Shown piece after piece: positions 11,025-52,917 of a stretch of 61,854 nucleotides of DNA (position 1 is the first letter of the stretch; every line of letters starts with the position of its first letter). Position numbers and translations under genes: made by a program. Below the pieces are notes generated by a model that did not search any database, was not told the DNA's origin, and worked only from the letters and a program-made list of their open reading frames with translations. Location: the IMG/VR virus record IMGVR_UViG_3300031277_000002, positions 1 through 61,854 of that record; one strand, written 5' to 3'. The DNA comes from a virus. Taxonomy: Duplodnaviria > Caudoviricetes.

Positions 11025-11896
11025 AAAATACAATAAAAATAGAAGATAAGTTAAAATTTGACATATGTATAATAGATGCTATGAATTATTGTTTTAAGTA
11101 TTTTTTTTCATATAAAAACTTATTTGATAAAAAAAATAGATGGACTGGCCTTTATTATGGGTATTTTAATTTATTATTTAGGTTAAAAAAAGAACATCCT
11201 GCAGCAAAGATAATAATAGCCTGGGACAGAACTCCCTCAGTAAGGTTAAAACTTGATGAATTTTACAAAGCAAACAGAGAAGATAAAAAAGATAAAATGG
11301 CTAAAGAAATGATACATCTTAGAGTAATGTTATCTATGTATGGAATAACGCAATTATATGCAAACGGATACGAGGCTGATGATGTTATATGCAAGGTTGT
11401 AAAGGAAAATAAAAATAAAAAAATATTAATATATTCTTCTGATAAAGATTTATTTCAATTGTTAACAGATAATGTTTTTATATCCAGGAAAAAGGGTCCA
11501 AAATTTCCAGAAAGAATTTATTCAAAAGATGAAATAGAAGAGGATTTTAATATAATAATAGAAAATTATACTCTATACAAAGCAATAATTGGAGATATGG
11601 GAGATAATGTTGTTGGAGTTTATGGAATAAATAAAAAAGAAACAAAAAGGTTCGTTGATTTTGTAGATGGTGAAGTTTCCAGAATTTATTCCATAAAAAA
11701 TTTAAATAAATTTAATAAAATAAAAAGAAAAATTATATTAAATTTTGCTCACATAGAAAATAATTACGATTTGGTAAAACTTTATGATGATTTTGAATTT
11801 CAGGAAATAGAAGTAAAAAAAGATTTAAACAGGCTTAAGAAAAAGTTTGAAGATTATGGATTAAAACAAGCTTTAAAAAAATTAGAAAAGGAATAG
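11021..11896 (+). CDS. 5'-3' exonuclease/flap endonuclease (PolI N-terminal/T4 RNase H-like)
   Basis: IDA, YKANR, EADD, SSDKDL.QL, GD.GDN..GV.GI. Confidence 0.9.
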   Translation: MKNTIKIEDKLKFDICIIDAMNYCFKYFFSYKNLFDKKNRWTGLYYGYFNLLFRLKKEHPAAKIIIAWDRTPSVRLKLDEFYKANREDKKDKMAKEMIHLRVMLSMYGITQLYANGYEADDVICKVVKENKNKKILIYSSDKDLFQLLTDNVFISRKKGPKFPERIYSKDEIEEDFNIIIENYTLYKAIIGDMGDNVVGVYGINKKETKRFVDFVDGEVSRIYSIKNLNKFNKIKRKIILNFAHIENNYDLVKLYDDFEFQEIEVKKDLNRLKKKFEDYGLKQALKKLEKE

Positions 11897-27975: not shown

Positions 27976-27987
27976 AGTAATAATGGT

Positions 27988-28070
27988 GGTGCAGTCACCT
28001 AGCGGCGAGGGTAGCGGTCTGTAAAACCGTGACGTAAGATACATCGATAGTTCGAGTCTATCCTGCACCA
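27988..28070 (+). tRNA. tRNA-Tyr(GTA)
   Basis: Acceptor GGTGCAG/CTGCACC; anticodon arm GCGGT-CTGTAAA-ACCGT; long variable arm; T arm GATAG-TTCGAGT-CTATC. CCA is not separately encoded. Confidence 0.92.
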
Positions 28071-28090
28071 ATTTTTTATAATTACTATAT

Positions 28091-39933: not shown

Positions 39934-40132
39934 AAAAATTTAAAATATAAAAAAAGAAGGGTGGTGGTTATGTTTATCAATTAAACAAATAATATAATAA
40001 AAATAATACCAGCAGAGATTAATAGTAGATAAAAAGTTTAATTTTGGGGATATTAAAAAAGTACAACCCTGCTTAATCGAAGTCCTAAGTTCCTACTTGG
40101 GAGGTTATTAGAGATGGTGGGGTTGTTTAAAA

Positions 40133-41320: not shown

Positions 41321-41405
41321 CTGGATTAATTAAACAACATGCACTATAATTATTAATGTAAGGCATTTAATACCTTAACATAAAAAGCTTGGGAGGCTTA
41401 ATATG
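41321..41405 (+). repeat. Class B promoter/leader repeat, copy 1
   Basis: TGGATT-17-TATAAT, a TAAGG/CCTTA hairpin and CTTGGGAG RBS; near-identical at 44854 and 45933. Confidence 0.88.
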
Positions 41406-43401: not shown

Positions 43402-43917
43402 TAAACATTTTTTTAAATTTGTTTTACCAATTTGTTTATTTTTACAATTTTAATAACGATAACATGTTTTTTAAATTTATTATAGTATTAATAATTTGGA
43501 CTTTTTATTTATTTCTTTATGTTGTTTTTTGGGCTCATTCACGTAACGAATGCAATAAACAACTAGAAAAATTTTATTTTATAAAAAAAGTAATTAAGGA
43601 CGAAATAAAAAAAGTTAAAAATTCTCAAGGAAAATCAGTACATTATAAAACAAAAAAAGAAGTTAAAATTAATACTTTAGAATGGTTGTTAAAACAAATA
43701 AATGAAAAATGATTTAAAAGAAGAAATAAAAAGTTTAAAGCCAATCATAAAACTTGCAATGAAATATAAAGCATTGCAAGTTTCTTTTTTTATAAACAAA
43801 AACATGTTTAATCGGGTAAAAAAATATTTTGAATTTAATGGTTTTTCAACAAATACAAATAAATATGGTGAATTAGTTATTAACTGGAAACACAGAAATT
43901 TGTTAAAAAACAAATAA
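43398..43917 (+). CDS. Two hypothetical proteins (43398-43712 membrane-associated; 43702-43917)
   Basis: Coupled ORFs. Confidence 0.5.
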
Positions 43918-43931
43918 AATAATCGTATAAT
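43901..43931 (+). promoter_or_regulatory. Class A promoter upstream of the second sigma factor
   Basis: TGTTAA-16-TCGTATAAT. Confidence 0.7.
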
Positions 43932-43934
43932 TAA

Positions 43935-44849
43935 TTGTATTATTTTTGTGGAGAAAAAATTATTTTGAAAAAAGAAAAAAACATAATTGATATATATAGA
44001 GACTCAATAACAAAATATGAAAAATCAAATAAAAAAATAACAGAAGATGAAGAAAAAAAGTTAATAGTTTTGGCCCAAAATGGATCAAAAAAAGCTTTAA
44101 ACATAGTTGTAAAAAATAATTTAAAATTAGTAATTTTTTTTGCAAATAAATATAGTTATAGAAATAATATAAAAATATATTTTGATGATTTAGTTCAGGA
44201 GGGAAACCTCGGGCTGATAAAATCAATAAAAAGGTTTGACGCAACAAAAAATATAAAATTTTCAACCTATTCTTCTTTTTGGATAAAACAAAAAATTTTA
44301 AGATATATAAAAAATCAACCATTTAATAATTGCCCATTTAGGATTCCTGTTCACGTTGTAGAAAAAATTATTAAATTTAAAAAAATAAAAAACGAACTTT
44401 TTGTAAAACTTGGGAAAGAACCAACTATACAAGATTTGGCTGATCATACAGGGAAAGACGTATCTTATGTTACAAAAATTTTTGATTATTTATATTCAAC
44501 ACTGTCAATTGATCAAGACAATTCTAATGATTGCGCATTACAAGAAATATTGAATTTGAAATCTGAATCTATAATAGAAGATGAAAAAAACGAAGATGTT
44601 AATGATATAATATATAAAAACCAATTATTGGAAATAATTAATAACGATTTTCCAAAAATATTAAGCGAAAAACAAATAGAAATAATAAAAATGAAATTTG
44701 GAATTTATTATGGGAAAAGTTATACACTTGACGAAATTGGACACCATTTTAAAAACACTAAAGAAGGAATAAGAATGATATTAAAATTTTCTTTTGAAAA
44801 GATAAGAAAAAATAAAAAATTATCAGAAAAACTTAAAGATTTTTTATAA
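43935..44849 (+). CDS. Second sigma70-family sigma factor (start possibly TTG at 43965)
   Basis: NLKLVI, DLVQEGNLGLIK...FD, KFSTYSSFWIKQ, RIPVH, TLDEIG. Confidence 0.9.
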   Translation: MYYFCGEKIILKKEKNIIDIYRDSITKYEKSNKKITEDEEKKLIVLAQNGSKKALNIVVKNNLKLVIFFANKYSYRNNIKIYFDDLVQEGNLGLIKSIKRFDATKNIKFSTYSSFWIKQKILRYIKNQPFNNCPFRIPVHVVEKIIKFKKIKNELFVKLGKEPTIQDLADHTGKDVSYVTKIFDYLYSTLSIDQDNSNDCALQEILNLKSESIIEDEKNEDVNDIIYKNQLLEIINNDFPKILSEKQIEIIKMKFGIYYGKSYTLDEIGHHFKNTKEGIRMILKFSFEKIRKNKKLSEKLKDFL

Positions 44850-44853
44850 AAAA

Positions 44854-44935
44854 CTGGATTAATTAAACACAATGCACTATAATTATTAATGTAAGGTATT
44901 TAATGCCTTAACAAAAACTTGGGAGATATAATATG
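44854..44935 (+). repeat. Class B promoter/leader repeat, copy 2
   Basis: See copy 1. Confidence 0.88.
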
Positions 44936-45163
44936 ATAGTAGTAACAAAAAAAGAACTTATAAGAATAGTAAGAGATGTAATGTCTGGTAGATCAGGTCA
45001 TACTATTGGTAACTTCAGAAGAATTAAAAGAGGCGAATGGGAAGTTGAAACATCAATAGGAAATCAATATCCTTTTGATTCTAATTCTTCAAACTGGGCT
45101 AATTTTAGACATGATAGAAACGAAATGACATTGAAAGAAGCAAAAGAATATATAGATGCATAA
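44933..45163 (+). CDS. Hypothetical protein, cassette 1 ORF a
   Basis: GGGAG RBS. Confidence 0.65.
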   Translation: MIVVTKKELIRIVRDVMSGRSGHTIGNFRRIKRGEWEVETSIGNQYPFDSNSSNWANFRHDRNEMTLKEAKEYIDA

Positions 45164-45211
45164 TAACCCTCCCAGGTTGCTTAGGGCCTTCGGGTCCCTG
45201 GCTACCTGGGT

Positions 45212-45271
45212 AAGTAATGCAGCCAACGGAGTGTCGCAAGCCCTCGTATAATGCAGAGCGTAATTTAACTT
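45212..45271 (+). ncRNA. Twister ribozyme (type P1-like), preceded by a GC-rich UUCG hairpin at 45171-45210
   Basis: UAA-UGCA-GC...GUCGCAAGC...UGCA-GAG-CG core; predicted cut at 45215/45216; P1 is short. Confidence 0.72.
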
Positions 45272-45283
45272 GGGAGTAAAAAT

Positions 45284-45457
45284 ATGACTAGATATTTTAA
45301 TAACTATAAAGAAGCGTTAGAGTTTGCTAAAGAATTAAAAATTGATGAGCCTGAATACGCTGACGATGTTCAGGTTTCAGAAACATGTTCTATATCTTTT
45401 GGAATATGGTCAAGAAAAGATTTAGGAAATTATGTAGTAACTAATGAAACAGAATAA
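45284..45457 (+). CDS. 57-aa hypothetical protein, cassette 1 ORF b (not in track)
   Basis: CTTGGGAG RBS; MTRYFNNYKEALEFAKEL... Confidence 0.7.
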   Translation: MTRYFNNYKEALEFAKELKIDEPEYADDVQVSETCSISFGIWSRKDLGNYVVTNETE

Positions 45458-45470
45458 TAAGGGTTGAATT

Positions 45471-45734
45471 ATGAATGCTAATATTATTTATGATGTCATT
45501 AATTATAAAGATGGTTTTGGTAAAGTAATATGCTTAGAATTCATTAATAAAGACAGAAAAGTTGTAAAAAAAATTACTGATGATTATTATGAGGAATATA
45601 AAAGAGATACAAACGGAATAGTTTCTGAATATAAAGATTCAACTGGGTATAGATATAAAATAAAAAAATCTATAAAAGATATAAATAAAGAGTTTTCTAA
45701 CAACATTAAATCTTTTTTGAGAGATTTAAAATGA
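45471..45734 (+). CDS. Hypothetical protein
   Basis: ORF. Confidence 0.55.
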   Translation: MNANIIYDVINYKDGFGKVICLEFINKDRKVVKKITDDYYEEYKRDTNGIVSEYKDSTGYRYKIKKSIKDINKEFSNNIKSFLRDLK

Positions 45735-45928
45735 CAGATATTCAAATAAAAAACTGGAAACATTTTATGAATGATCAAATAGAAGAAATAAAAAAACACA
45801 ATTGGATAGAATCTGAAAAGGCAGGACGAGATGTAAGTTGTGTTTCAAATTATGAATGGATAAACAAGTATGCAAAAAAATTCAAAGATGAATGGTTGTT
45901 AAATCATCCAGATGAAAATTTTTTATAA
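45731..45928 (+). CDS. DUF4032-like small protein
   Basis: EIKKH.WIESEKAGRD...EWI.KYA..F; paralogue at 56594. Confidence 0.6.
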   Translation: MTDIQIKNWKHFMNDQIEEIKKHNWIESEKAGRDVSCVSNYEWINKYAKKFKDEWLLNHPDENFL

Positions 45929-45932
45929 TTTT

Positions 45933-46017
45933 CTGGATTAATTAAACAACATGCACTATAATTATTAATGTAAGGTATTTAATACTTTAACATCAAAAGC
46001 TTGGGAGGCTTAATATG
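45933..46017 (+). repeat. Class B promoter/leader repeat, copy 3
   Basis: See copy 1. Confidence 0.88.
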
Positions 46018-46428
46018 AAATTTTATAAGATTGATGGACATTATACTACATATGTATCAATTGATGATACAATACAAGCGACCGTTGAAGATGCAATTAA
46101 TGCAGATTGGTCATTAGATGATATATATGGGTCATCATTGTACGAATATCTTGATGAAAACGGTGAGTTATTAAAATCAGAACTTGATGAAAATCTTGGT
46201 GATTATATTATTGTTTCATATTGGGATGGTAATAATTGGCAACATGATTTTTATGACAGATGTGAGCTTAAAATAGTAGAAGGCGAAGTAATTTCATTAT
46301 CACATCCTTCACCAGCATATTATTTTAATTATGAAATAGCACTAGAAGATGGTGAAAAAATAAAAGTAACCCAATCAAACATGTCTGGATCATTATCACC
46401 TTATTATAGAGAAGATACAGAAGAATAA
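46015..46428 (+). CDS. Acidic hypothetical protein, cassette 2 ORF a
   Basis: GGGAGG RBS. Confidence 0.7.
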   Translation: MKFYKIDGHYTTYVSIDDTIQATVEDAINADWSLDDIYGSSLYEYLDENGELLKSELDENLGDYIIVSYWDGNNWQHDFYDRCELKIVEGEVISLSHPSPAYYFNYEIALEDGEKIKVTQSNMSGSLSPYYREDTEE

Positions 46429-46476
46429 CAACCCTCCCAGGTTGCCTAGGGCTTTCGAGCCCCGGGCTATCTGGGT

Positions 46477-46535
46477 GAGTAATGCAGCCGACGGCGGTCA
46501 CAAGCCCGCGCGTAATGCAGAGTGAAAAATAACTT
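46477..46535 (+). ncRNA. Twister ribozyme (type P1-like), preceded by a GC-rich hairpin at 46436-46475
   Basis: UAA-UGCA-GC-C...GCGG-UCACAAGC-CCGC...UGCA-GAG-UGA; pseudoknot UCAC/GUGA; predicted cut at 46480/46481. Confidence 0.8.
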
Positions 46536-46547
46536 GGGAGATATAGA

Positions 46548-46703
46548 ATGGAACAATTAAATGAATTAAATGAAAAATATACAAATAATCGTATTGTTGC
46601 ATATCGAATTATTGATTCTATTGATAAATCAGATTTACTTGATTTATCATATGATGAATTATTGTGTCTTGCAAAATCAATTGTTGATGAAATTTATAAT
46701 TAA
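46548..46703 (+). CDS. 51-aa hypothetical protein, cassette 2 ORF b (not in track)
   Basis: CTTGGGAG RBS; MEQLNELNEKYTNNRIVAYRII...; its stop TAA is part of hammerhead stem I. Confidence 0.7.
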   Translation: MEQLNELNEKYTNNRIVAYRIIDSIDKSDLLDLSYDELLCLAKSIVDEIYN

Positions 46704-46761
46704 CCCTGATGAGTCTTTGAAAATTAAGACGAAACACGCTTTTAACCAAGCGTGTCGGTTA
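46701..46761 (+). ncRNA. Hammerhead ribozyme, type I
   Basis: TAACC | CTGATGA | GTCTT..AAGAC | GAAA | CACGCTT..AAGCGTG | TC | GGTTA; GUC cleavage after 46756. Confidence 0.92.
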
Positions 46762-47092
46762 TATAAATTAAAAGTTTGGGAATTAATTTTTGGAGAAAAT
46801 TAACCTCTAATGATTTTAGTTTCATTAGATAATAAAACAAAATACGGGAGTAAAATAATGTCAAACAAAAAAGGACAATTAAATTTAACATTAAAAGAGA
46901 AAGCAAAATGTGACGCAATTAGAGATATGCTGGATGATGGTTTTATTAACCTGCCAGAATTAAGTATAGAAACTTTATTAAAAATAATTAAAAAATAAGT
47001 TTTAAAATTATTAAAAATGTATTAGGATTAAAATAAGTAAAAAGTTTAAATCCTTCCTTTAATGATTTTAAAACAAAAAAAGGAGTAAATTT

Positions 47093-47584
47093 TTGGAAAC
47101 TACTGTACAAAAAATGATAGAAATGTCTTCTGTTTTTGAAATAATTGAAAACGAAAGTTATAGCCAAAATGAAGGAAAAATTGATCCAAATATAGGTTAT
47201 GCTATTTCAAAAAACAAAAGGCTGTTTTTTCAATCAATCACAAAAAATAAAAAATTTGTTGAAAATCTGGAGCAATTTAACAAGTTTGTTGTAAAAAAAC
47301 AAAAGGTTGAAAAACAAATTAAAGAATTAGAAGGCAAAAATTCAAATCTTAAAAACAAAAAAGAGATAGAAAGTAATAATATTTTAATCTCAGAAAAGAA
47401 AAACCAAATTGAAAAATTAGAAAATGAAAACAAAAATGTTATTGAAACAAACACAAAAGGGTTGACAAAAAAAGAAACCATAGATGGGGATCTTTATAAA
47501 TTTAATTTAAAAAACCTACCAAAACTTAAACAATCTGTAATTGATTACTTGATTGATAACAACCTAATAAATAGTAAATATTAA
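47093..47584 (+). CDS. Coiled-coil hypothetical protein
   Basis: AGGAG RBS, TTG start. Confidence 0.6.
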   Translation: METTVQKMIEMSSVFEIIENESYSQNEGKIDPNIGYAISKNKRLFFQSITKNKKFVENLEQFNKFVVKKQKVEKQIKELEGKNSNLKNKKEIESNNILISEKKNQIEKLENENKNVIETNTKGLTKKETIDGDLYKFNLKNLPKLKQSVIDYLIDNNLINSKY

Positions 47585-47594
47585 TTAAAGTCAT

Positions 47595-47625
47595 AAAAGA
47601 TACCAACCTTCTCGGTATCTTTTTT
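47595..47625 (+). terminator. Intrinsic terminator
   Basis: AAAAGATACC...GGTATCTTTT followed by TTT. Confidence 0.75.
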
Positions 47626-47655
47626 TATTTTTATATTTTTTATTTTGTTGTAAAA

Positions 47656-47665
47656 TGTTATAATA
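47656..47665 (+). promoter_or_regulatory. Putative late promoter TGTTATAATA
   Basis: Same element with downstream GTATAAAG before the protease gene; resembles the TGTTATATTA late motif of Twort-like phages. Confidence 0.5.
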
Positions 47666-47696
47666 TAAAAGTATAAAGCTTTTCGGAGAAATTTCA

Positions 47697-49268
47697 ATGG
47701 ATTATACCAAAACAAATAGTTTTGAAGGATATATAAAAAATAGGAACATTATAACTAATTATCAAGATGTAAATAGGTTAATAAAATCTATGAATAAAAA
47801 CAATTCTCTTGGTTCTATAAACCCACCTAAAGGTATTTTTGAGCCGGACCCTATGTATAACCATCATTCTGTAGATCCAAGGGGGTTAAGGCAAAAATAT
47901 TACAAATTAACATATAGAATATTAAGAGATATTGCTTCGAAAGTTGCTCCTGTTATAGCAGTTCACACATTAAGAACAATGCAAATAAGACCGTTTAGTT
48001 TTAGGTCATATAATTCTGATGAAACAGGATTTTGTGTAAAACTCAAAGATAAAAAAGCTACTCCAGATAAACAAGAAAAAAAAGAAATAGAAGAAATAGA
48101 GGAATTCTTTCTAAATACGGGATTCAAAGATTTTCAAGGAGCGGGAGAAAGAGAAGATACGATTCAGGAAATCAATGAAGCTCTTACTAGAGAATTATAC
48201 ACTATAGACCAAATTGGGATATCATTAAGAAGAAATAGAAAAGGAAAATTACTTGATTTCTGGCTATTAGATGGCGCAACAATAGTGAGAACAATGAAAA
48301 ATGTAGGATTTGATGGGGATAAAAAGATAAAATTTGTTCAGGAAATAGAAGGTCATATTGTAGAAACTTTTACTGATGATGATATAATTTTTTATTATTC
48401 AAACAGATTGACAGATATTTACAGAAAAGGGTATGGGTTTTCATATCTTGAACAATGTGTTGATGTTATTACATCTTGGGTATTTGGAATGTCTTATAAT
48501 AAAGAATTTTTCAATACTTCAGCACAACCAAAGGGAATTCTTTCTTTTGAAGACGAAGATGCAGATCAATTAGATATAGAAGAGTTACAAAGGCAGTGGA
48601 TATCCATGTTTCAGGGCATTAAGGGAATGTGGAAAACGCCATTTCTTACTCACAAGGCAAAATGGCAAAATATTTCACCATCTAATAGAGATATGGAGTA
48701 TAATGAATATCTTCAGGTTCTTTCTTCGTGGATTTTTGCAATTCATGGAACAGATGCTCAAGAAATAGGATTAAGATTAAATCAAGCTCAAAATGTATTA
48801 AATGAGAATCAAGAATCAAAAATTGCTTTTTCTAAATCAAGAGCCTTAAGAGATTTATTATTTTCTTTATCAACTATTTATAATAAAATATTACAAAGAG
48901 TTCCAGAGTGGGATAAATACCAATTAGTGTTTACCGGATTAGAAGCTAAAGATCAAGCAGCTGAAGAAGATGTAAAATCAAAAGCAGTTAAAACAAGAAA
49001 AACAGTAAATGAAATAAGAGCAGAAGAGGATGACCCACCTTTAGAATATGGTGATATTATATTAGACCCTCAATATATTCAATATATTCAATATGCTCAA
49101 TCTCAACAACAAATGAAACAACAATCAGAACAGGGAATTAATGACCAAACACAAACACAAGAAAATAATAATACAGATAACCAGGAACCAGATTTTGAAA
49201 TAAACGAAGGCGACTTGGAAGAAATAAATAAATCAAAAAATGATGATTTTATAGAAATAATTTTATAA
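47697..49268 (+). CDS. Portal protein
   Basis: Size and position; DGATI, GYGFSYLE, FF...QPKGIL, DMEY, TVNEIRAE.D.PPL..GDIIL. Confidence 0.88.
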   Translation: MDYTKTNSFEGYIKNRNIITNYQDVNRLIKSMNKNNSLGSINPPKGIFEPDPMYNHHSVDPRGLRQKYYKLTYRILRDIASKVAPVIAVHTLRTMQIRPFSFRSYNSDETGFCVKLKDKKATPDKQEKKEIEEIEEFFLNTGFKDFQGAGEREDTIQEINEALTRELYTIDQIGISLRRNRKGKLLDFWLLDGATIVRTMKNVGFDGDKKIKFVQEIEGHIVETFTDDDIIFYYSNRLTDIYRKGYGFSYLEQCVDVITSWVFGMSYNKEFFNTSAQPKGILSFEDEDADQLDIEELQRQWISMFQGIKGMWKTPFLTHKAKWQNISPSNRDMEYNEYLQVLSSWIFAIHGTDAQEIGLRLNQAQNVLNENQESKIAFSKSRALRDLLFSLSTIYNKILQRVPEWDKYQLVFTGLEAKDQAAEEDVKSKAVKTRKTVNEIRAEEDDPPLEYGDIILDPQYIQYIQYAQSQQQMKQQSEQGINDQTQTQENNNTDNQEPDFEINEGDLEEINKSKNDDFIEIIL

Positions 49269-49281
49269 AGGTTAATTAATT

Positions 49282-52200
49282 ATGACTAAATTAGTGTTTT
49301 TTAAATCAGCTAGAGATTTTCCTATAGGCCATATAAGTGTAACAAAAACAGGACAAAAGATTAAAAAGGTTGCTCCCGGAAAATGGGTTCAAATTTCTGA
49401 AAAAAGAGAAAACAAAAACGTACAGGGCTTAACCATAAAAAACGGTTTTTATTTTGACGGAAAAACAAAAATAACAAACGATTATGAGAAAGCAAAAAAA
49501 TATATACAAAAAAAAGAAGAAAATAAACCAGCTTTCCAAAAAAAAGAAAATAAAAATATATCAATAGGTGATACCATAAGAGTCAAAGCTAATGCAAAAA
49601 AAGACGGAATAAGGGAAACCAAAGGGAGGGGGATAGTTGCAAAAGTTAAAGAAATTAAGGATGGAATTGTAAAAATAATAGATGATACAGGAAGAATGTT
49701 TCAGGTCCAGCAATCTTCATTAGAGTTTGCAAAATCTGGAATAATAGTCAATTATTTTGATTTAATTAAATCTGAAGAATTAAAAATTGGAATTAAAGTA
49801 GAAAAAGAACATGCAAACACGGTTAAAAAAATAAAAGATAAAAATTTAAACGAGCATGAATCAGCTAAACTAATTGCAAAAGATCATATTAAAGAAGCAA
49901 AAGATAAAGGATATGATTATTATAAACGATTATTAGTTATGGAAAATTTAGAAGATTATAAAGGTATAGATAAAAAAATAATTGAATATATCAAATCTAA
50001 TAATTTTATAAAAGACGAAAAAGGAATTCATGAATTTGCGAAAAAACTAAAAATTAACCAGCATAAACTAGAAGAGAGAATTTATGCAATATTAAAAGAC
50101 GTAGTTGGAAACAAAATAAAAAAATCATCTAATTTTGTTTTCAGTTTATTTAAATCAAGAGACGATAAACTTGAAAAATTGAAAAAATTTTTAATTAAAA
50201 TTTTAGAAAATAATGTTGAAAAATCTTTAGTTTTTGGTTTTTTTGATTTGATAAAGGCAGGAAAAGGCTATTCAGTTGGGACTATAAGAAGTTGGAAGGA
50301 AAAAAAATTCATAAAAGTGTCTCCCGGGAAATGGAGAAGGTTTTATGAAGGAGAGAGTAGAGGACAAAAACAGTCAATATCTTATATAAAAAAACAAATT
50401 GAAAAAGCAGACTCTATCTCAGAATTGGCAAAAATAGTTTTTGAAAATAGAAAAAGATTCACAAATTTAGATGGGTCTTATCATAAAATTGTGAACCAAT
50501 TACTTGAATTAGCAAAAAACAAAAAAAAGGACAAAAAAAATGGTAAAATTAGAACAACAAATAACACAGGCAGAAGCTATGTTGATGGGGGTAAAAAAAA
50601 TGGAAAAGAACAAAAAACTTTATCAAAATCAGAAATTAAAACAGTTAGATCCGATATTACACAAAGAGCTAAAAGTAATGAGATACCCGAAGATATTGGA
50701 AGAAATTTAAACAAACATCAAAAAGATGCAATTAATTTAATATTAGAAAATTATAAAAAAAATAAAGGATTTTTGCTAGCAGACGGGACCGGAGTTGGAA
50801 AAACCAGACAAGAAATAGCTTTAGCAAAAATACAATTGGATAAAAATAAAAAAACATTAATTGTAACTGAAAATAAAAGAATAATAGAAGATGCGTTTAA
50901 AAAAGACGCAAAGCCATTTAATATTGATTTAAATTATATTGAAAATAAAGAAAATATAAATGATAAAAAAATAAATATTACAACATACGACAAATTAAAA
51001 AACATTTCAGAAGAATCTTTTGACCAAATAATATTTGACGAGTCTCATAACTTAAAAAATTATACATCACAAAAAACAAAAAATGGATTAAATTTAATAA
51101 AAAAATCTAAAAATGTATTGTTAGCAACAGCTACTCCTCTTGATAAACCTGAGCATGTTGGATATATAGCTTCTGGATTAGGGTTAAATTATTTTAAAGT
51201 AATGAAAGATTTAGGACAAAAAGAAAAAGAGGTAAATATAGGATACGGAAAAACAATAAAAGTTTTTGAAAGAGAAGTTTCTAAATTAGAAGAATTATAT
51301 AGAATAGGTAATTTTTTTGATAAATTAACAAATTATGGAAATATGATTAAAAGAGAAGTATCTATGGACAACGTTAATTTAAACATTATTGACATAGATG
51401 TTTCAAAAAAAGAAAAAGAAATTTTTGACAATTTATATGAAAAATTCGAAAATCATATAAGCAGCGTTCCAAAAAAAGAAAAAGGGATAGCGACCGCTAC
51501 AGGTTTAATGGCTTTAAGAAGGGTAAATGAGGATTTTAAAATAAATAAAGCATTAAACGAAATAGAAAATGATATAAAAAACGGGAAAAAAGTTGTATTG
51601 TTTGCCACCAGGGTCAACAAATCAGATATTTCCTTTGGTGGTGAAAAAAAAGTTAATTCTTTTGAAAGTGAAGGAGTATTAAATAAAATAAACGAAGAAT
51701 TAGAAAAAAAAGGAATAAAGGTATCAAAATTATATAAACATGACAACAAATCAAAAGAAGTTAGAGAAAAAAAATCAAAAGAAGCAATAGACAAATTTCA
51801 AAACGGGGATAATCAGGTAATAATAACGACTCCTCAGTCTGGAGGAACTGGATTAAATTTAGATGATAGCAAGGGTAATAGTCCAAGATCTGTTATTGTA
51901 TTAACTCCCCCATTTTCTGCAAATGATGTTGTACAAATGTTGGGTAGAGTTAATAGATTAACAACAAAAAGCAAAGTAGATGCAAAATTAATTTATATAA
52001 AAAATAATCCTGTAGAAGATTGGAATAAAGGTATAATAAATACAAAATTAAAAAGACTTGGAGCGTCTTCAAAAGGAGATTACGAAAATATAATTTTAGA
52101 CAATAAAATTGATAATGGGTTGATAGACAATTTAAGCGACAGTGAAATTAAAAATATTACAAAAAATAATATAGCTTTGCCAGAAAATCAAGATTTTGTA

Positions 52201-52917
52201 ATGGAGTCTTTAAATAAAATAAACCCAAATTATAAAGAAAAAAAAGAAAAAGTTGAATATATAAAAAATATTGATCATTTTATTTCAATATTGCCAAAAA
52301 AAGAAAACGGAAAAATAGATTTTTCCAAACCATTACCTAACCCTAAATATAATTTTGGTAAAAACAAAGGAAAGACAATTAATAGTGATTTATCTTATTT
52401 AAAATGGGTTTTTAGTACCGCCGGGTATTATAATATAGATTTTAATAAAATAAATTTTTTAAAATCATTTAAAATAATTTTTCGTGTAAATAAAAATTTA
52501 TTATTAAAAACCGTAGCTGGTATTGAAAAATATTATAATAAAATTTATGGACCGGGTTCTTATTCTAAAATTCCTGTTAGCAAAAAAACAAAAGAAAGTG
52601 AAAAAAAATTTGATATAAACGTAAGCCCTAAAGAAAGGTCAGAATATTTATCATCAGAAGATCATGAAAGATATGTTAAAGCCAAAAAAAAACTTGCTAA
52701 TTATGCAGGAACAAATACCCATTATGGAAAAGGTATAGTTTCTCAAGTTAAAAAAAAATTAAAAAATAAAAAAGAATATATGAAAAATCAAAAAGATAAA
52801 AAATTTGAAAAAGTAATGAGAGAATTTTATGATGGAAAATTAAAAGATAGTTCCGGAAAGCTAGTAACTGATAAAAAGAGAGCTATAGCAATAGCATTTT
52901 CAGAAAGTGGAAAATAA
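49282..52917 (+). CDS. Polyvalent head-associated protein with strawberry-notch-like SF2 helicase
   Basis: LADGTGVGKT, FDESH, ATATP, GGTGLNL, QMLGRVNR. Also a DUF5661-like segment (GIKVEKEH..IAKDH.KE..YY) and a DUF6496-like C terminus (KVMREF..GKL..SSGK.VT..K.AIAIAFSE). Confidence 0.8.
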   Translation: MTKLVFFKSARDFPIGHISVTKTGQKIKKVAPGKWVQISEKRENKNVQGLTIKNGFYFDGKTKITNDYEKAKKYIQKKEENKPAFQKKENKNISIGDTIRVKANAKKDGIRETKGRGIVAKVKEIKDGIVKIIDDTGRMFQVQQSSLEFAKSGIIVNYFDLIKSEELKIGIKVEKEHANTVKKIKDKNLNEHESAKLIAKDHIKEAKDKGYDYYKRLLVMENLEDYKGIDKKIIEYIKSNNFIKDEKGIHEFAKKLKINQHKLEERIYAILKDVVGNKIKKSSNFVFSLFKSRDDKLEKLKKFLIKILENNVEKSLVFGFFDLIKAGKGYSVGTIRSWKEKKFIKVSPGKWRRFYEGESRGQKQSISYIKKQIEKADSISELAKIVFENRKRFTNLDGSYHKIVNQLLELAKNKKKDKKNGKIRTTNNTGRSYVDGGKKNGKEQKTLSKSEIKTVRSDITQRAKSNEIPEDIGRNLNKHQKDAINLILENYKKNKGFLLADGTGVGKTRQEIALAKIQLDKNKKTLIVTENKRIIEDAFKKDAKPFNIDLNYIENKENINDKKINITTYDKLKNISEESFDQIIFDESHNLKNYTSQKTKNGLNLIKKSKNVLLATATPLDKPEHVGYIASGLGLNYFKVMKDLGQKEKEVNIGYGKTIKVFEREVSKLEELYRIGNFFDKLTNYGNMIKREVSMDNVNLNIIDIDVSKKEKEIFDNLYEKFENHISSVPKKEKGIATATGLMALRRVNEDFKINKALNEIENDIKNGKKVVLFATRVNKSDISFGGEKKVNSFESEGVLNKINEELEKKGIKVSKLYKHDNKSKEVREKKSKEAIDKFQNGDNQVIITTPQSGGTGLNLDDSKGNSPRSVIVLTPPFSANDVVQMLGRVNRLTTKSKVDAKLIYIKNNPVEDWNKGIINTKLKRLGASSKGDYENIILDNKIDNGLIDNLSDSEIKNITKNNIALPENQDFVMESLNKINPNYKEKKEKVEYIKNIDHFISILPKKENGKIDFSKPLPNPKYNFGKNKGKTINSDLSYLKWVFSTAGYYNIDFNKINFLKSFKIIFRVNKNLLLKTVAGIEKYYNKIYGPGSYSKIPVSKKTKESEKKFDINVSPKERSEYLSSEDHERYVKAKKKLANYAGTNTHYGKGIVSQVKKKLKNKKEYMKNQKDKKFEKVMREFYDGKLKDSSGKLVTDKKRAIAIAFSESGK

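What the first reader, a model, noticed from the sequence alone, without database searches (positions are those of the whole stretch)
46436..46761. Small ORF bracketed by a twister and a hammerhead ribozyme: self-excising, potentially circularisable mRNA
Seen: a twister core (predicted cut 46480/46481) lies just upstream of the RBS of the 51-aa ORF 46548-46703. A canonical type I hammerhead (cut after 46756) begins at that ORF's stop codon. Known: both ribozyme classes leave 5'-OH and 2',3'-cyclic-phosphate ends, which are RtcB ligase substrates, and 5'-OH ends slow decay by RNase E/J. Inference: a ~276-nt RNA containing the RBS and the full ORF would be excised and could be stabilised or circularised, giving a phage-made mini-mRNA or circular RNA.
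Basis: partly seen in the sequence, partly recalled or inferred. Interest (0 to 1): 0.85.

Follow-up and report, generated by a model that had tools for sequence, protein, structure and literature searches.

The report
Phage gene flanked by two ribozymes
A tiny phage gene really is flanked by a twister and a hammerhead self-cutting RNA, but this looks like the already known habit of phages of cutting long messages into single-gene pieces, with no support for an RNA circle.

Summary
A twister core lies at 46473-46531, with its predicted cut at 46480/46481. A type I hammerhead lies at 46698-46764, with its cut at 46756/46757. Together they bracket the RBS and the 51-codon ORF 46548-46703. Both score below Rfam's gathering thresholds (35.2 and 36.4 bits). 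Both still belong to large, covarying phage subfamilies fetched from IMG/VR: at least 114 twister loci and at least 118 hammerhead loci.

- **Second twister:** another copy sits at 45208-45267. It differs from the first by two compensatory double changes, one in P4 and one in the T1 pseudoknot.
- **Missing P1:** both window twisters lack P1 and instead carry a very stable UUCG hairpin just 5' of the cut.
- **Genomic position:** both families sit between an upstream stop codon and a downstream SD and start codon far more often than control positions do.
- **Conserved bracket:** a related phage keeps the order 137-aa ORF, twister, small ORF, hammerhead, but with a different 22-codon ORF inside.

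Excision of a linear 276-nt single-gene RNA that keeps both ribozyme bodies at its ends is therefore the best reading. Circularisation is unsupported: no helix joins the two ends, no RtcB is found in the record, and no RNA run was listed. Ribozyme-flanked phage genes and twister-hammerhead clustering are already in print, so this is a new member of a known kind.

The parts
45951..45983 (+). 33-nt promoter-like repeat, the likely start of the transcription unit that holds ORF137, twister B, ORF51 and the hammerhead
   Evidence: Three copies in the window (41339, 44872, 45951) with at most 1 mismatch; 0 of 100 shuffles give any match. Each is followed about 12 nt later by the leader/RBS A(A/G)CTTGGGAG. 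Its promoter function is inferred, not shown.
46015..46428 (+). Upstream 137-aa ORF; it would end up on the twister's 5' cleavage product
   Evidence: ORF list. No PHROG match, and only a sub-threshold Pfam DUF7456 match. A 91% identical homologue lies upstream of a twister in L238/L239.
46431..46480 (+). Stable hairpin with a UUCG loop that ends 5 nt before the cleavage site; it would be the 3' end of the upstream fragment and may stand in for the missing P1
   Evidence: Minimum free energy -28.6 kcal/mol for the 56 nt ending at U46480. It also forms in the fold of the 136-nt context. It is conserved in 6 copies: window x2, L017 x2, L237, L238.
46473..46531 (+). Twister ribozyme B (type-P1 connectivity, no P1 helix); predicted cut between U46480 and A46481
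   Evidence: RF03160 gives 35.2 bits and R2 gives 54.6 bits. P2 is UGCA/UGCA, P4 is GCG/CGC and T1 is CAC/GUG.
46536..46703 (+). RBS GGGAG (46536-46540) and 51-codon ORF (46548-46703) of unknown function
   Evidence: ORF list. No Pfam or PHROG family. One 94% identical 51-aa protein among 5.8 billion clusters. No relative in viral contigs.
46691..46769 (+). Type I hammerhead ribozyme (core 46698-46764; stem I may extend over 46691-46705 / 46757-46769); predicted cut after C46756
   Evidence: The minimum-free-energy fold of 46680-46790 is the three-way hammerhead junction. The stop codon 46701-46703 lies in the 5' strand of stem I.
46481..46756 (+). Predicted excised 276-nt RNA: twister body, RBS, ORF51, hammerhead body
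   Evidence: Follows from the two predicted cleavage sites. In its predicted fold both ribozyme bodies stay folded and the two ends are not paired with each other.
45166..45267 (+). Second copy: UUCG hairpin plus twister A (45208-45267), predicted cut at 45215/45216, between the 76-aa ORF and the 57-aa ORF
   Evidence: R2 gives 38.1 bits and RF03160 gives 23.4 bits. T1 is CGC/GCG and P4 is GAG/CUC, both compensatory relative to copy B. The hairpin folds at -26.4 kcal/mol.
46858..46998 (+). First ORF downstream of the hammerhead (46 codons from ATG 46858, with SD GGGAG; an in-frame ATG lies at 46810)
   Evidence: no family match.

Best explanation
Three self-cleaving ribozymes sit in successive gaps between small genes of a phage operon that lies between a sigma-factor gene and the portal gene. 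They are two P1-less twisters and one type I hammerhead. As the long message is made, each ribozyme cuts it between the stop codon of one gene and the ribosome-binding site of the next.

Around ORF51 the cuts would give three linear pieces:

1. The ORF137 message, ending in a very stable UUCG hairpin with a 2',3'-cyclic phosphate.
2. A 276-nt single-gene RNA that begins with the folded twister body (5'-OH) and ends with the folded hammerhead body (2',3'-cyclic phosphate).
3. The downstream message, starting with a 5'-OH.

The likely purpose is to uncouple the stability and translation of neighbouring genes. The bracket around ORF51 is a consequence of ribozyme density, not a device built for that ORF.

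**Shown here:** the motifs, their covariation, their position between cistrons, and conservation of the bracket in one relative.

**Inferred:** cleavage itself, co-transcription, the fate of the pieces, and any effect on expression.
For: **(1) The twisters look constrained.**
- In 122 unique phage twisters fetched with a pattern that left T1, P4 and P1 free, both free T1 pairs are standard in 118 of 122. Ten or more triplet types occur.
- P4 is fully paired in 113 of 122.
- On alignment A2 (57 rows), 91.9% of cells pair and 199 cells carry changes on both sides, against 61 in shuffles (0 of 500 shuffles reach the observed value).
- The two window copies differ by two compensatory double changes (P4 C-G to A-U; T1 A-U to G-C). 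Neither change breaks a helix.

**(2) The hammerhead looks constrained.**
- 107 of 128 hits parse as type I.
- On alignment A1 (66 rows), 97% of cells pair and 261 cells are changed on both sides, against 65 in shuffles (0 of 500).
- The two stem II pairs that the pattern left free are standard in 66 of 66 rows.
- The minimum-free-energy fold is the hammerhead junction.

**(3) Both families sit between cistrons.**

| Set | Upstream ORF end within 60 nt and SD + start within 80 nt |
|---|---|
| Twisters | 65 of 132 |
| Twisters, opposite strand | 4 of 132 |
| Hammerheads | 47 of 115 |
| Hammerheads, opposite strand | 1 of 115 |
| Random places | 81 of 2000 |

- The median distance from the stop codon to stem I is 0.

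**(4) The bracket is conserved but its content is not.**
- In L238 the order is 137-aa ORF homologue, twister (37.8 bits), 22-codon ORF, hammerhead (63.4 bits, not in R1's training set), then the next ORF.

**(5) Other mixed brackets exist.**
- L184: Twister-P5, 83-aa ORF, hammerhead.
- L164: pistol, 85-aa ORF, hammerhead.

**(6) Co-transcription is plausible.** No terminator-like site lies on the + strand of 43800-47800.

**(7) Loss of P1 is tolerated.** P1 imperfections do not reduce cleavage and P1 is called dispensable in PMC11662667 (passages).

**(8) The idea is already in print.** Processing of polycistronic phage RNA into single-gene mRNAs by flanking ribozymes was proposed, and cleavage shown in vitro, for hammerhead clusters (PMC3088659, passages).
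Against: - No cleavage or expression data exist for this locus.
- Neither ribozyme reaches Rfam's gathering score.
- The twisters lack P1, and their strong 5' hairpin could compete with folding.
- Twister A has an extra U between P4 and L4.
- The R1 and R2 scores are partly circular. The patterns came from the window, and R1's training set includes the window hammerhead.
- The type I parse required stems, so the 97% pairing in stems I and III is partly built in.
- Promoter-like hits are no more frequent than in shuffles (33 against 28.5), so the transcription unit is inferred from a repeat only.
- The stability arguments depend on an unknown host. In Bacillota a 5'-OH attracts RNase J1.
- Only about 11 of 230 fetched loci carry both a twister and a hammerhead detectable with my models. 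Brackets are therefore a minority arrangement.
Confidence: 0.62

Rival explanations
1. The excised 276-nt RNA is joined end to end by a host RtcB-type ligase into a covalently closed coding circle, a natural counterpart of the engineered twister-flanked 'Tornado' cassettes.
For: - Both predicted ends have the chemistry RtcB needs: a 5'-OH and a 2',3'-cyclic phosphate. This is a general property of these ribozyme classes (PMC11662667 and PMC8782182 introductions).
- The bracket of twister, small ORF and hammerhead recurs in L238 with a different ORF. That is what one would expect if the ends matter more than the content.
- RtcB is common in bacteria: 10 of the 14 control genomes have it.
Against: - The predicted fold shows no helix that brings the two ends together.
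- The 5' end of the twister 3' fragment is described as buried and poorly ligatable (PMC8782182).
- The phage record has no RtcB or RNA ligase, although it is only 68% complete.
- Perreault et al. looked for circular or spliced products from ribozyme-flanked phage genes and detected none (PMC3088659).
- The ORF has its own stop codon, so a circle would bring no endless reading frame.
- Both orders, twister before hammerhead and hammerhead before twister, occur in other loci.
Confidence: 0.07
2. The hammerhead is active, but one or both twisters are crippled relics. Loss of P1, competition from the 5' hairpin, or the extra U in copy A would prevent cleavage. In that case nothing is excised, and only one cut is made, after ORF51.
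For: - P1 is not paired in either copy.
- The Rfam scores are far below the gathering score: 35.2 and 23.4 against 67.2.
- The hairpin is much more stable (-26 to -29 kcal/mol) than the twister helices.
- 16 of 122 family members have no P1 base pair at the junction, so this is a minority state.
Against: - Compensatory changes between copies A and B in P4 and T1 argue for continued selection on the fold.
- The predicted fold of the context forms the hairpin and P2/P4 together, without conflict.
- P1 imperfections did not lower cleavage in a test of more than a thousand natural twisters (PMC11662667).
- The same P1-less form with a hairpin is kept in 6 copies across 3 contigs.
Confidence: 0.12
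3. Twister cleavage acts as a translational switch. The 5' strand of the hairpin (CUCCCAGGUU, 46435-46444) can pair with the leader/RBS AACUUGGGAG (46531-46540). Cleavage would remove this anti-SD strand and free the RBS of ORF51.
For: - A 10-bp complementarity with one G-U pair is present in both window copies and in L238.
- In the predicted fold of the uncut context, CCC at 46432-46434 pairs with GGG of the RBS.
- In eukaryotic RNA viruses, ribozyme self-cleavage upstream of an ORF has been shown to be needed for translation (PMC13725137, abstract and passages).
Against: - The complementarity drops to about 4 bp in the L017 and L237 copies, whose RBS is GAGGAG.
- The local hairpin forms first and uses the same nucleotides.
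- The leader AACTTGGGAG is a general feature of this phage's gene starts, so the match may be a by-product of a G-rich hairpin strand.
Confidence: 0.08
4. The ribozymes are mainly repeated module borders. These conserved sequences would promote recombination and gene shuffling between related phages, or spread selfishly, with cleavage being incidental.
For: - Different ORFs follow near-identical twisters in the window, L017, L237 and L238.
- L238 joins an A-type twister and the first 15 codons of the window's 57-aa ORF directly to a hammerhead.
- A hammerhead core with an identical stem II occurs in unrelated phages, including three Crassvirales.
Against: - Recombination sites would not need compensatory base changes in pseudoknots and stems.
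- The strong sense-strand, between-cistron placement points to a function at the RNA level.
- The two roles do not exclude each other.
Confidence: 0.08

Closest known systems
Clustered hammerhead ribozymes flanking single genes or short gene blocks in prophages (Perreault et al. 2011, PMC3088659; passages read)
   Same: - Ribozymes lie in successive gaps between genes of phage operons.
- The bracketed genes vary.
- The proposed role is processing into single-gene mRNAs.
- Circular products were considered there as well.
   Different: - Here the pair is mixed: a twister upstream and a type I hammerhead downstream.
- The bracketed ORF is only 51 codons.
- The host genome is an uncultured virus record.
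- Cleavage has not been tested here, whereas it was shown in vitro and in E. coli for three of the 2011 clusters.
Co-localisation of twister, hammerhead, pistol and other self-cleaving ribozymes near phage genes (reviewed in PMC6765202 and PMC10085705; passages read; the original Roth 2014 and Weinberg 2015 papers are recalled, not read)
   Same: - Two unrelated ribozyme classes sit within 200 nt of each other in a phage.
- The function is still unknown.
- L164 shows twister, pistol and hammerhead on one strand.
   Different: - The strongest published associations are with genes of Mu-like phages.
- This record has a portal only 29-33% identical to those of Herelleviridae.
Type-P1 twister ribozyme (Rfam RF03160)
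   Same: - The order of elements is the same: U^AA, P2, GCC, P4/L4, AA, P2', GAG plus T1.
- The conserved letters are the same.
- Both pseudoknots are possible.
   Different: - There is no P1 helix and no P3.
- A long UUCG hairpin lies 5 nt upstream of the cut.
- The score is half of Rfam's gathering score.
RAGATH-1 hammerhead (Rfam RF03152), the best-scoring Rfam hammerhead model
   Same: - Type I topology.
- The same CUGAUGAG and CGAAAC core.
- A long stem III.
   Different: - Stem II here is a regular 5-bp helix with an 8-nt loop, UGAAAAUU, not the minimal stem II of the RAGATH-1 model.
- The model's upstream hairpin is poorly matched.
- 36.4 bits against a gathering score of 56.3.
Engineered twister-flanked 'Tornado' circular-RNA cassettes
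   Same: An RNA flanked by two self-cleaving ribozymes that leave a 5'-OH and a 2',3'-cyclic phosphate, which are RtcB substrates.
   Different: - As recalled, Tornado places complementary stems at the two ends to hold them together. No such helix is predicted here.
- The 3' ribozyme here is a hammerhead.
glmS ribozyme and RNase J1 in Bacillus subtilis (PMC3328962, passage read)
   Same: Ribozyme cleavage in a 5' leader creates a 5'-OH message whose fate is set by host RNases.
   Different: - glmS is metabolite-controlled, and its 5'-OH product is destabilised.
- Here no ligand is known, and the twister body may shield the 5' end.

Membership tests
Twister ribozyme (type P1) | Score at or above Rfam's gathering threshold for RF03160 (67.2 bits) | tested here: not met
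   35.2 bits (46476-46528) and 23.4 bits (45211-45264). None of the 13 P1-type phage twisters in the 10 loci reached it either, so the threshold excludes this whole short, P3-less subfamily.
Twister ribozyme (type P1) | Conserved core letters: U^AA at the cleavage site, GCC after P2, GU...AAGCC in L4, AA before P2', GAG | tested here: met
   All are present in both copies in the alignments to RF03160 and to R2.
Twister ribozyme (type P1) | P2 and P4 helices | tested here: met
   P2 is UGCA/UGCA in both copies. P4 is GCG/CGC in copy B and GAG/CUC in copy A, which is compensatory. In the family, 97.6% of P4 cells pair.
Twister ribozyme (type P1) | T1 pseudoknot between L4 and the strand 3' of P2' | tested here: met
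   CAC/GUG in copy B and CGC/GCG in copy A. In the family, 118 of 122 have both free pairs standard and 99.4% of cells pair.
Twister ribozyme (type P1) | T2 pseudoknot (GC after P2 with GC of AAGCC; this assignment is recalled, not taken from a call) | tested here: inconclusive
   The letters are present and could pair, but my search pattern fixed them. They carry no covariation information.
Twister ribozyme (type P1) | P1 helix closing the ribozyme | tested here: not met
   There are no base pairs at the junction in either copy. P1 is reported to be dispensable for cleavage (PMC11662667), so this lowers membership in the canonical form, not the likelihood of activity.
Twister ribozyme (type P1) | Site-specific self-cleavage | not testable with these tools
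   This needs in vitro transcription or RNA end mapping.
Hammerhead ribozyme, type I | Catalytic core: CUGANGA, GAAA and a UH cleavage triplet in the right places | tested here: met
   CUGAUGA at 46706-46712, GAAA at 46731-46734, GUC at 46754-46756.
Hammerhead ribozyme, type I | Three helices around the core, with stem I open and stems II and III closed by loops | tested here: met
   Stem I is 5 bp, extendable to 13 bp with a bulge. Stem II is 5 bp and stem III is 8 bp. The minimum-free-energy fold reproduces them. The family shows covariation in all three stems.
Hammerhead ribozyme, type I | Score at or above the gathering threshold of an Rfam hammerhead family | tested here: not met
   RAGATH-1-hammerhead gives 36.4 bits against 56.3, and Hammerhead_3 gives 21.4 against 48.5. 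None of the 7 hammerheads of this subfamily reached a threshold either.
Hammerhead ribozyme, type I | Site-specific self-cleavage | not testable with these tools
   This needs in vitro transcription or RNA end mapping.
RAGATH-1 hammerhead variant (RF03152) | Minimal stem II and a conserved upstream hairpin, as in the Rfam model | tested here: not met
   In the alignment, a 12-nt insertion sits where the model has 3, because a regular stem II is present, and the upstream hairpin is gapped. I do not file it under this variant.
Ribozyme-derived circular RNA (viroid-like, retrozyme or Tornado-like) | A helix or ribozyme fold that brings the 5'-OH and 2',3'-cyclic-phosphate ends together | tested here: not met
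   In both the minimum-free-energy and centroid folds of 46481-46756, the 5' end sits in twister P2 and the 3' end in hammerhead stem III. The ends do not pair with each other.
Ribozyme-derived circular RNA (viroid-like, retrozyme or Tornado-like) | A ligase is available | tested here: inconclusive
   No RtcB (PF01139) or RNA_ligase (PF09414) match in the virus record. The record is incomplete and the host is unknown.
Ribozyme-derived circular RNA (viroid-like, retrozyme or Tornado-like) | Back-junction reads or an exonuclease-resistant species | not testable with these tools
   No RNA run was listed for this stretch.

The most novel reading that the evidence does not exclude
The phage makes a covalently closed, 276-nt protein-coding RNA circle. 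Twister and hammerhead cleavage leave RtcB-ready ends, and a host ligase closes them. The result would be an exonuclease-proof mini-message, a natural forerunner of the engineered ribozyme-flanked circular-RNA cassettes. The conserved bracket with swappable content in a related phage would then be a general 'circularise whatever lies between' device.
Probability: 0.07. Interest if true: 0.85.

Novelty: new member of a known kind. Interest (0 to 1): 0.36.

Why it matters
What bacterial and phage twister and hammerhead ribozymes are for is still an open question. The 2019 and 2023 papers I read say the reason for their shared neighbourhoods is unknown.

This locus is a compact test case. In about 400 nt, two different ribozymes frame one tiny gene. 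The geometry leaves both folded ribozyme bodies on the excised piece. A relative keeps the frame but swaps the gene.

That makes three ideas cheap to test on one construct:
- stabilising end-caps;
- uncoupling the decay of neighbouring cistrons;
- unmasking of the RBS.

There is also a practical point. All three ribozymes, and every tested member of their two large phage subfamilies, fall below Rfam's curated cut-offs. Routine annotation of phage genomes will therefore miss them.

Tried and rejected
- **RNA evidence:** The look-up of sequencing runs was unreachable twice. When it answered, no RNA holder was listed. Read laying was therefore not used, and expression, ends and junctions remain untested.
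- **Homologues of ORF51:** no relative in viral contigs. Only one 94% identical protein turned up in the large protein collection, so the ORF gives no functional lead.
- **Protein families:** Pfam and PHROGs gave nothing for ORF51 or for five of the other small ORFs scanned. ORF137 gave only a sub-threshold DUF7456 match.
- **Promoter and terminator scan:** the promoter-like count was not above shuffles, so it cannot define the transcription unit.
- **Similarity to known phages:** a blastn search of the 2.3-kb region against GenBank phages found only the 32-35-nt hammerhead core in three Crassvirales.
- **Type-P5 twister reading, rejected:** I considered the window elements as type-P5 twisters with the hairpin as P1. 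No P2'/T1 strand lies upstream of the hairpin.
- **Non-circular permutation, unproven:** I also considered them as a new non-circular permutation, with the P1 3' strand moved upstream. The simpler view is loss of P1 plus an upstream hairpin that many family members carry beside a normal P1. Of 127 members, 90 have such a hairpin, against 50 for shuffled sequence and 36 for a control window further upstream.
- **RAGATH-1 hammerhead membership, rejected:** see the membership test.
- **Order preference:** I looked for a preference for twister before hammerhead. Both orders occur in the few loci that have both, so nothing can be concluded.
Full report
**What is in the sequence**

The window is a linear IMG/VR virus record of 61,854 bases, and CheckV estimates it at 68% complete. 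The region of interest lies between a sigma-factor gene (43935-44849) and a portal gene (47697-49268). It is a run of small + strand ORFs with no family assignment.

GC content is 15-33% here, apart from two islands of 53-54% at about 45150-45250 and 46400-46550.

At Rfam's gathering thresholds the whole window yields only a DUF3800-VIII RNA (40063-40126) and a tRNA. With E-value reporting, two further matches appear:

| Family | Position | Bits | Gathering score | E-value, whole window |
|---|---|---|---|---|
| twister-P1 | 46476-46528 | 35.2 | 67.2 | 6.2e-4 |
| RAGATH-1-hammerhead | 46679-46761 | 36.4 | 56.3 | 0.022 |

The twister alignment puts the U^AA cleavage site at 46480/46481. The hammerhead has CUGAUGAG, a 5-bp stem II, CGAAAC, an 8-bp stem III, GUC ending at 46756, and stem I.

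**A second twister**

About 1.3 kb upstream, at 45208-45267, lies a second copy between a 76-aa and a 57-aa ORF. It scores 23.4 bits with RF03160 and 38.1 bits with my model R2.

The two copies differ in P4 (GCG/CGC against GAG/CUC) and in the T1 pseudoknot (CAC/GUG against CGC/GCG). These are two double changes that keep pairing, and neither breaks a helix. That is what selection on the twister fold predicts, not neutral decay.

Neither copy has a P1 helix. Instead, both are preceded by a 45-nt hairpin with a UUCG loop that ends 5 nt before the cleavage site. It folds at -26.4 and -28.6 kcal/mol.

**The twister family**

That gave 122 unique twisters including the two window copies.

- At positions the pattern left free, both T1 pairs are standard in 118 of 122, with ten or more triplet types.
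- P4 is fully paired in 113 of 122.
- P1 has no base pair at the junction in 16 of 122, which includes the window and L017 copies.
- On a 57-row alignment without window or L017 sequences, 91.9% of cells pair and 199 cells carry changes on both sides, against 61 in shuffles (0 of 500 shuffles reach this). Sliding the partners drops pairing to 19-48%.

**The hammerhead family**

A blastn search against GenBank phages matched only the hammerhead core and stem II, at 100% identity, in three Crassvirales. A pattern with the two inner stem II pairs left free found at least 118 viral loci.

- Of 128 hits including the window, 107 parse as type I. Others are type III permutations of the same core.
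- On 66 rows, 97% of cells pair and 261 cells are changed on both sides, against 65 in shuffles (0 of 500). The free stem II pairs are standard in 66 of 66 rows.
- My parse required stems I and III to exist, so their pairing percentage is partly built in. The covariation and the stem II result are not.

**Model scores**

R2 was built without window sequence. It gives 54.6 and 38.1 bits for the two window twisters, and the next match scores 10 bits. R1 includes the window hammerhead as one of 66 training rows. It gives 69.7 bits, with the next match at 14.8.

Both models descend from patterns taken from the window, so these scores are supporting evidence, not independent evidence.

None of the 7 hammerheads of this subfamily, and none of the 13 P1-type twisters, in ten loci I gave to Rfam passed a gathering threshold. 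The sub-threshold Rfam scores therefore reflect the models, not decay of these copies.

**Where the families sit**

I asked how often an ORF of at least 40 codons ends within 60 nt upstream while an SD plus start codon opens an ORF within 80 nt downstream, on the same strand.

| Set | Both conditions met |
|---|---|
| Twisters | 65 of 132 |
| Same twister places, opposite strand | 4 of 132 |
| Hammerheads | 47 of 115 |
| Same hammerhead places, opposite strand | 1 of 115 |
| Random places | 81 of 2000 |

For the hammerheads, the median distance from the stop codon to stem I is 0. Both families are thus elements that lie between cistrons and act in the sense orientation. The window's three copies fit this exactly.

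A stable hairpin (-8 kcal/mol or stronger) ending within 8 nt of the twister cleavage site is found in 90 of 127 unique twisters. The figure is 50 for shuffled versions and 36 for a control window further upstream. This is a moderate enrichment.

**Is the bracket special?**

A related contig, read as L017, L238 and L239, carries this order: the same promoter-like repeat, a 91% identical 137-aa ORF, an A-type twister (37.8 bits), a 22-codon ORF, a type I hammerhead (63.4 bits, not in R1's training set), and the next ORF. The first 15 residues of that 22-codon ORF match the window's 57-aa ORF. The frame is therefore conserved while the framed ORF is swapped. The excised piece there would be 186 nt.

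Mixed brackets exist in other loci:
- **L184:** Twister-P5 (56.4 bits, above Rfam's threshold), an 83-aa ORF, then a hammerhead. A TTGACA/TATACT promoter-like site lies before the hammerhead.
- **L164:** pistol (62.6 bits), an 85-aa ORF, then a hammerhead. Five further twisters lie on the same strand.
- **L097:** Twister-P5, then a twister, then a hammerhead.
- **L021 and L039:** a twister and a hammerhead only 84-88 nt apart with no ORF between them.
- **L007, L056, L065, L134:** the reverse order, hammerhead before twister.

Only about 11 of the 230 fetched loci showed both classes with my models. Brackets recur, but they look like a by-product of ribozyme density.

**How it most likely works**

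A 33-nt repeat occurs three times (41339, 44872, 45951). Each copy is followed by the same leader/RBS, A(A/G)CTTGGGAG. The same leader follows both twisters. I read the repeats as promoters, possibly for the phage's own sigma factor. This is an inference.

No terminator-like site lies on the + strand of 43800-47800. A transcript from about 45980 would therefore carry ORF137, twister B, ORF51, the hammerhead and the following ORFs.

Cleavage would leave three pieces:
- ORF137 with a terminal UUCG hairpin and a 2',3'-cyclic phosphate.
- A 276-nt ORF51 RNA whose 5' end is the folded twister body and whose 3' end is the folded hammerhead body.
- A downstream RNA with a 5'-OH that is first held in a stem I of up to 13 bp.

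A type-P1 twister stays on its 3' product and a type I hammerhead stays on its 5' product. With this order, both bodies stay on the middle piece, where they could act as end-caps. That is an inference from geometry.

Which RNases matter depends on the host. The portal is 29-33% identical to those of Herelleviridae, which hints at a Bacillota host. In Bacillota, a naked 5'-OH is a substrate of RNase J1 (PMC3328962).

**Circularisation**

- The predicted fold of the excised RNA gives no helix joining the two ends.
- The record has no RtcB or RNA ligase.
- The 5' end of a cleaved twister is reported as buried and poorly ligatable (PMC8782182).
- Perreault et al. did not detect circular or spliced products from ribozyme-flanked phage genes (PMC3088659).

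None of this excludes a host ligase acting on some molecules. I put the probability at about 7%.

**Comparison with what is known**

- Ribozymes flanking single genes in prophages, and the idea that they cut long phage transcripts into single-gene mRNAs, are in Perreault et al. 2011 (passages).
- The shared neighbourhoods of twister and hammerhead ribozymes, and their clustering with each other, are summarised in PMC6765202 and PMC10085705 (passages). Both papers call the biological reason unknown.
- P1 is reported as dispensable in PMC11662667.
- Four full-text searches listed no paper that describes a natural twister-ORF-hammerhead cassette in a phage as a circular RNA, or this UGAAAAUU-loop hammerhead subfamily in Crassvirales. 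I read only listings and selected passages, and supplements were closed.

My verdict is a genuine, well-supported new instance of a known kind of arrangement. It has two modest twists, the P1-less twister with a 5' hairpin and the conserved frame with a swapped ORF.

Noticed in passing
window 40063-40126 (+): A DUF3800-VIII RNA (RF03075) matches at 57.3 bits, above its gathering score of 40.2. It is the only structured RNA in the window besides the tRNA that passes Rfam's cut-off.
   Followed up: no
window 41339-41371, 44872-44904, 45951-45983 (+): A 33-nt repeat is present three times with at most 1 mismatch. Each copy is followed about 12 nt later by the leader/RBS A(A/G)CTTGGGAG, and the same leader follows both twisters (45267, 46531). 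These may be promoters for the phage-encoded sigma factor at 43935-44849.
   Followed up: partly
window 46435-46444 versus 46531-46540 (also 45170-45179 versus 45267-45276): The 5' strand of the hairpin, CUCCCAGGUU, is complementary over 10 bp (one G-U pair) to the RBS leader AACUUGGGAG downstream of the twister. Cleavage would physically separate the two. The complementarity is weak in the L017 and L237 copies.
   Followed up: partly
L164 6113-12239 (- strand): One strand carries seven ribozymes of three classes in about 6 kb: five twisters (R2), one pistol (RF02679, 62.6 bits) and one hammerhead. An 85-aa ORF (11457-11714) is bracketed by the pistol and the hammerhead.
   Followed up: partly
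L001 1495-1551, L002 1495-1566, L003 about 1480-1535 (Crassvirales records NC_055903, NC_055902, NC_055889): The same hammerhead core, with an identical stem II and UGAAAAUU loop, occurs in crAss-like phages. It is type I in L001 and L002 and a type III permutation in L003. L001 also has a RAGATH-1 hammerhead at 126-198.
   Followed up: partly
L009 42-106 (+): Rfam's Twister-P5 model matches at 39.7 bits (gathering score 37.6), overlapping a P1-type twister at 68-116. An upstream AUGCAAAGUG strand plus the hairpin could offer a second, P5-type way to complete the same core.
   Followed up: no
L184 2660-2730 (+): A TTGACA, 17 nt, TATACT promoter-like site lies directly upstream of a type I hammerhead. 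That ribozyme may trim the 5' end of a primary transcript and not split a polycistronic one.
   Followed up: no
Ten loci given to Rfam: Rfam's gathering thresholds miss all 7 hammerheads of the UGAAAAUU-loop subfamily and all 13 short P1-type twisters in those loci. Standard annotation will under-report phage ribozymes.
   Followed up: partly
window 27987-28071 (+): A tRNA-Tyr (anticodon GTA) with a long variable arm.
   Followed up: no
window 49282-52917 (+): A 1211-aa protein next to the portal gene has SNF2-related, AAA_34 and Strawberry-notch-type helicase C-terminal domains.
   Followed up: no
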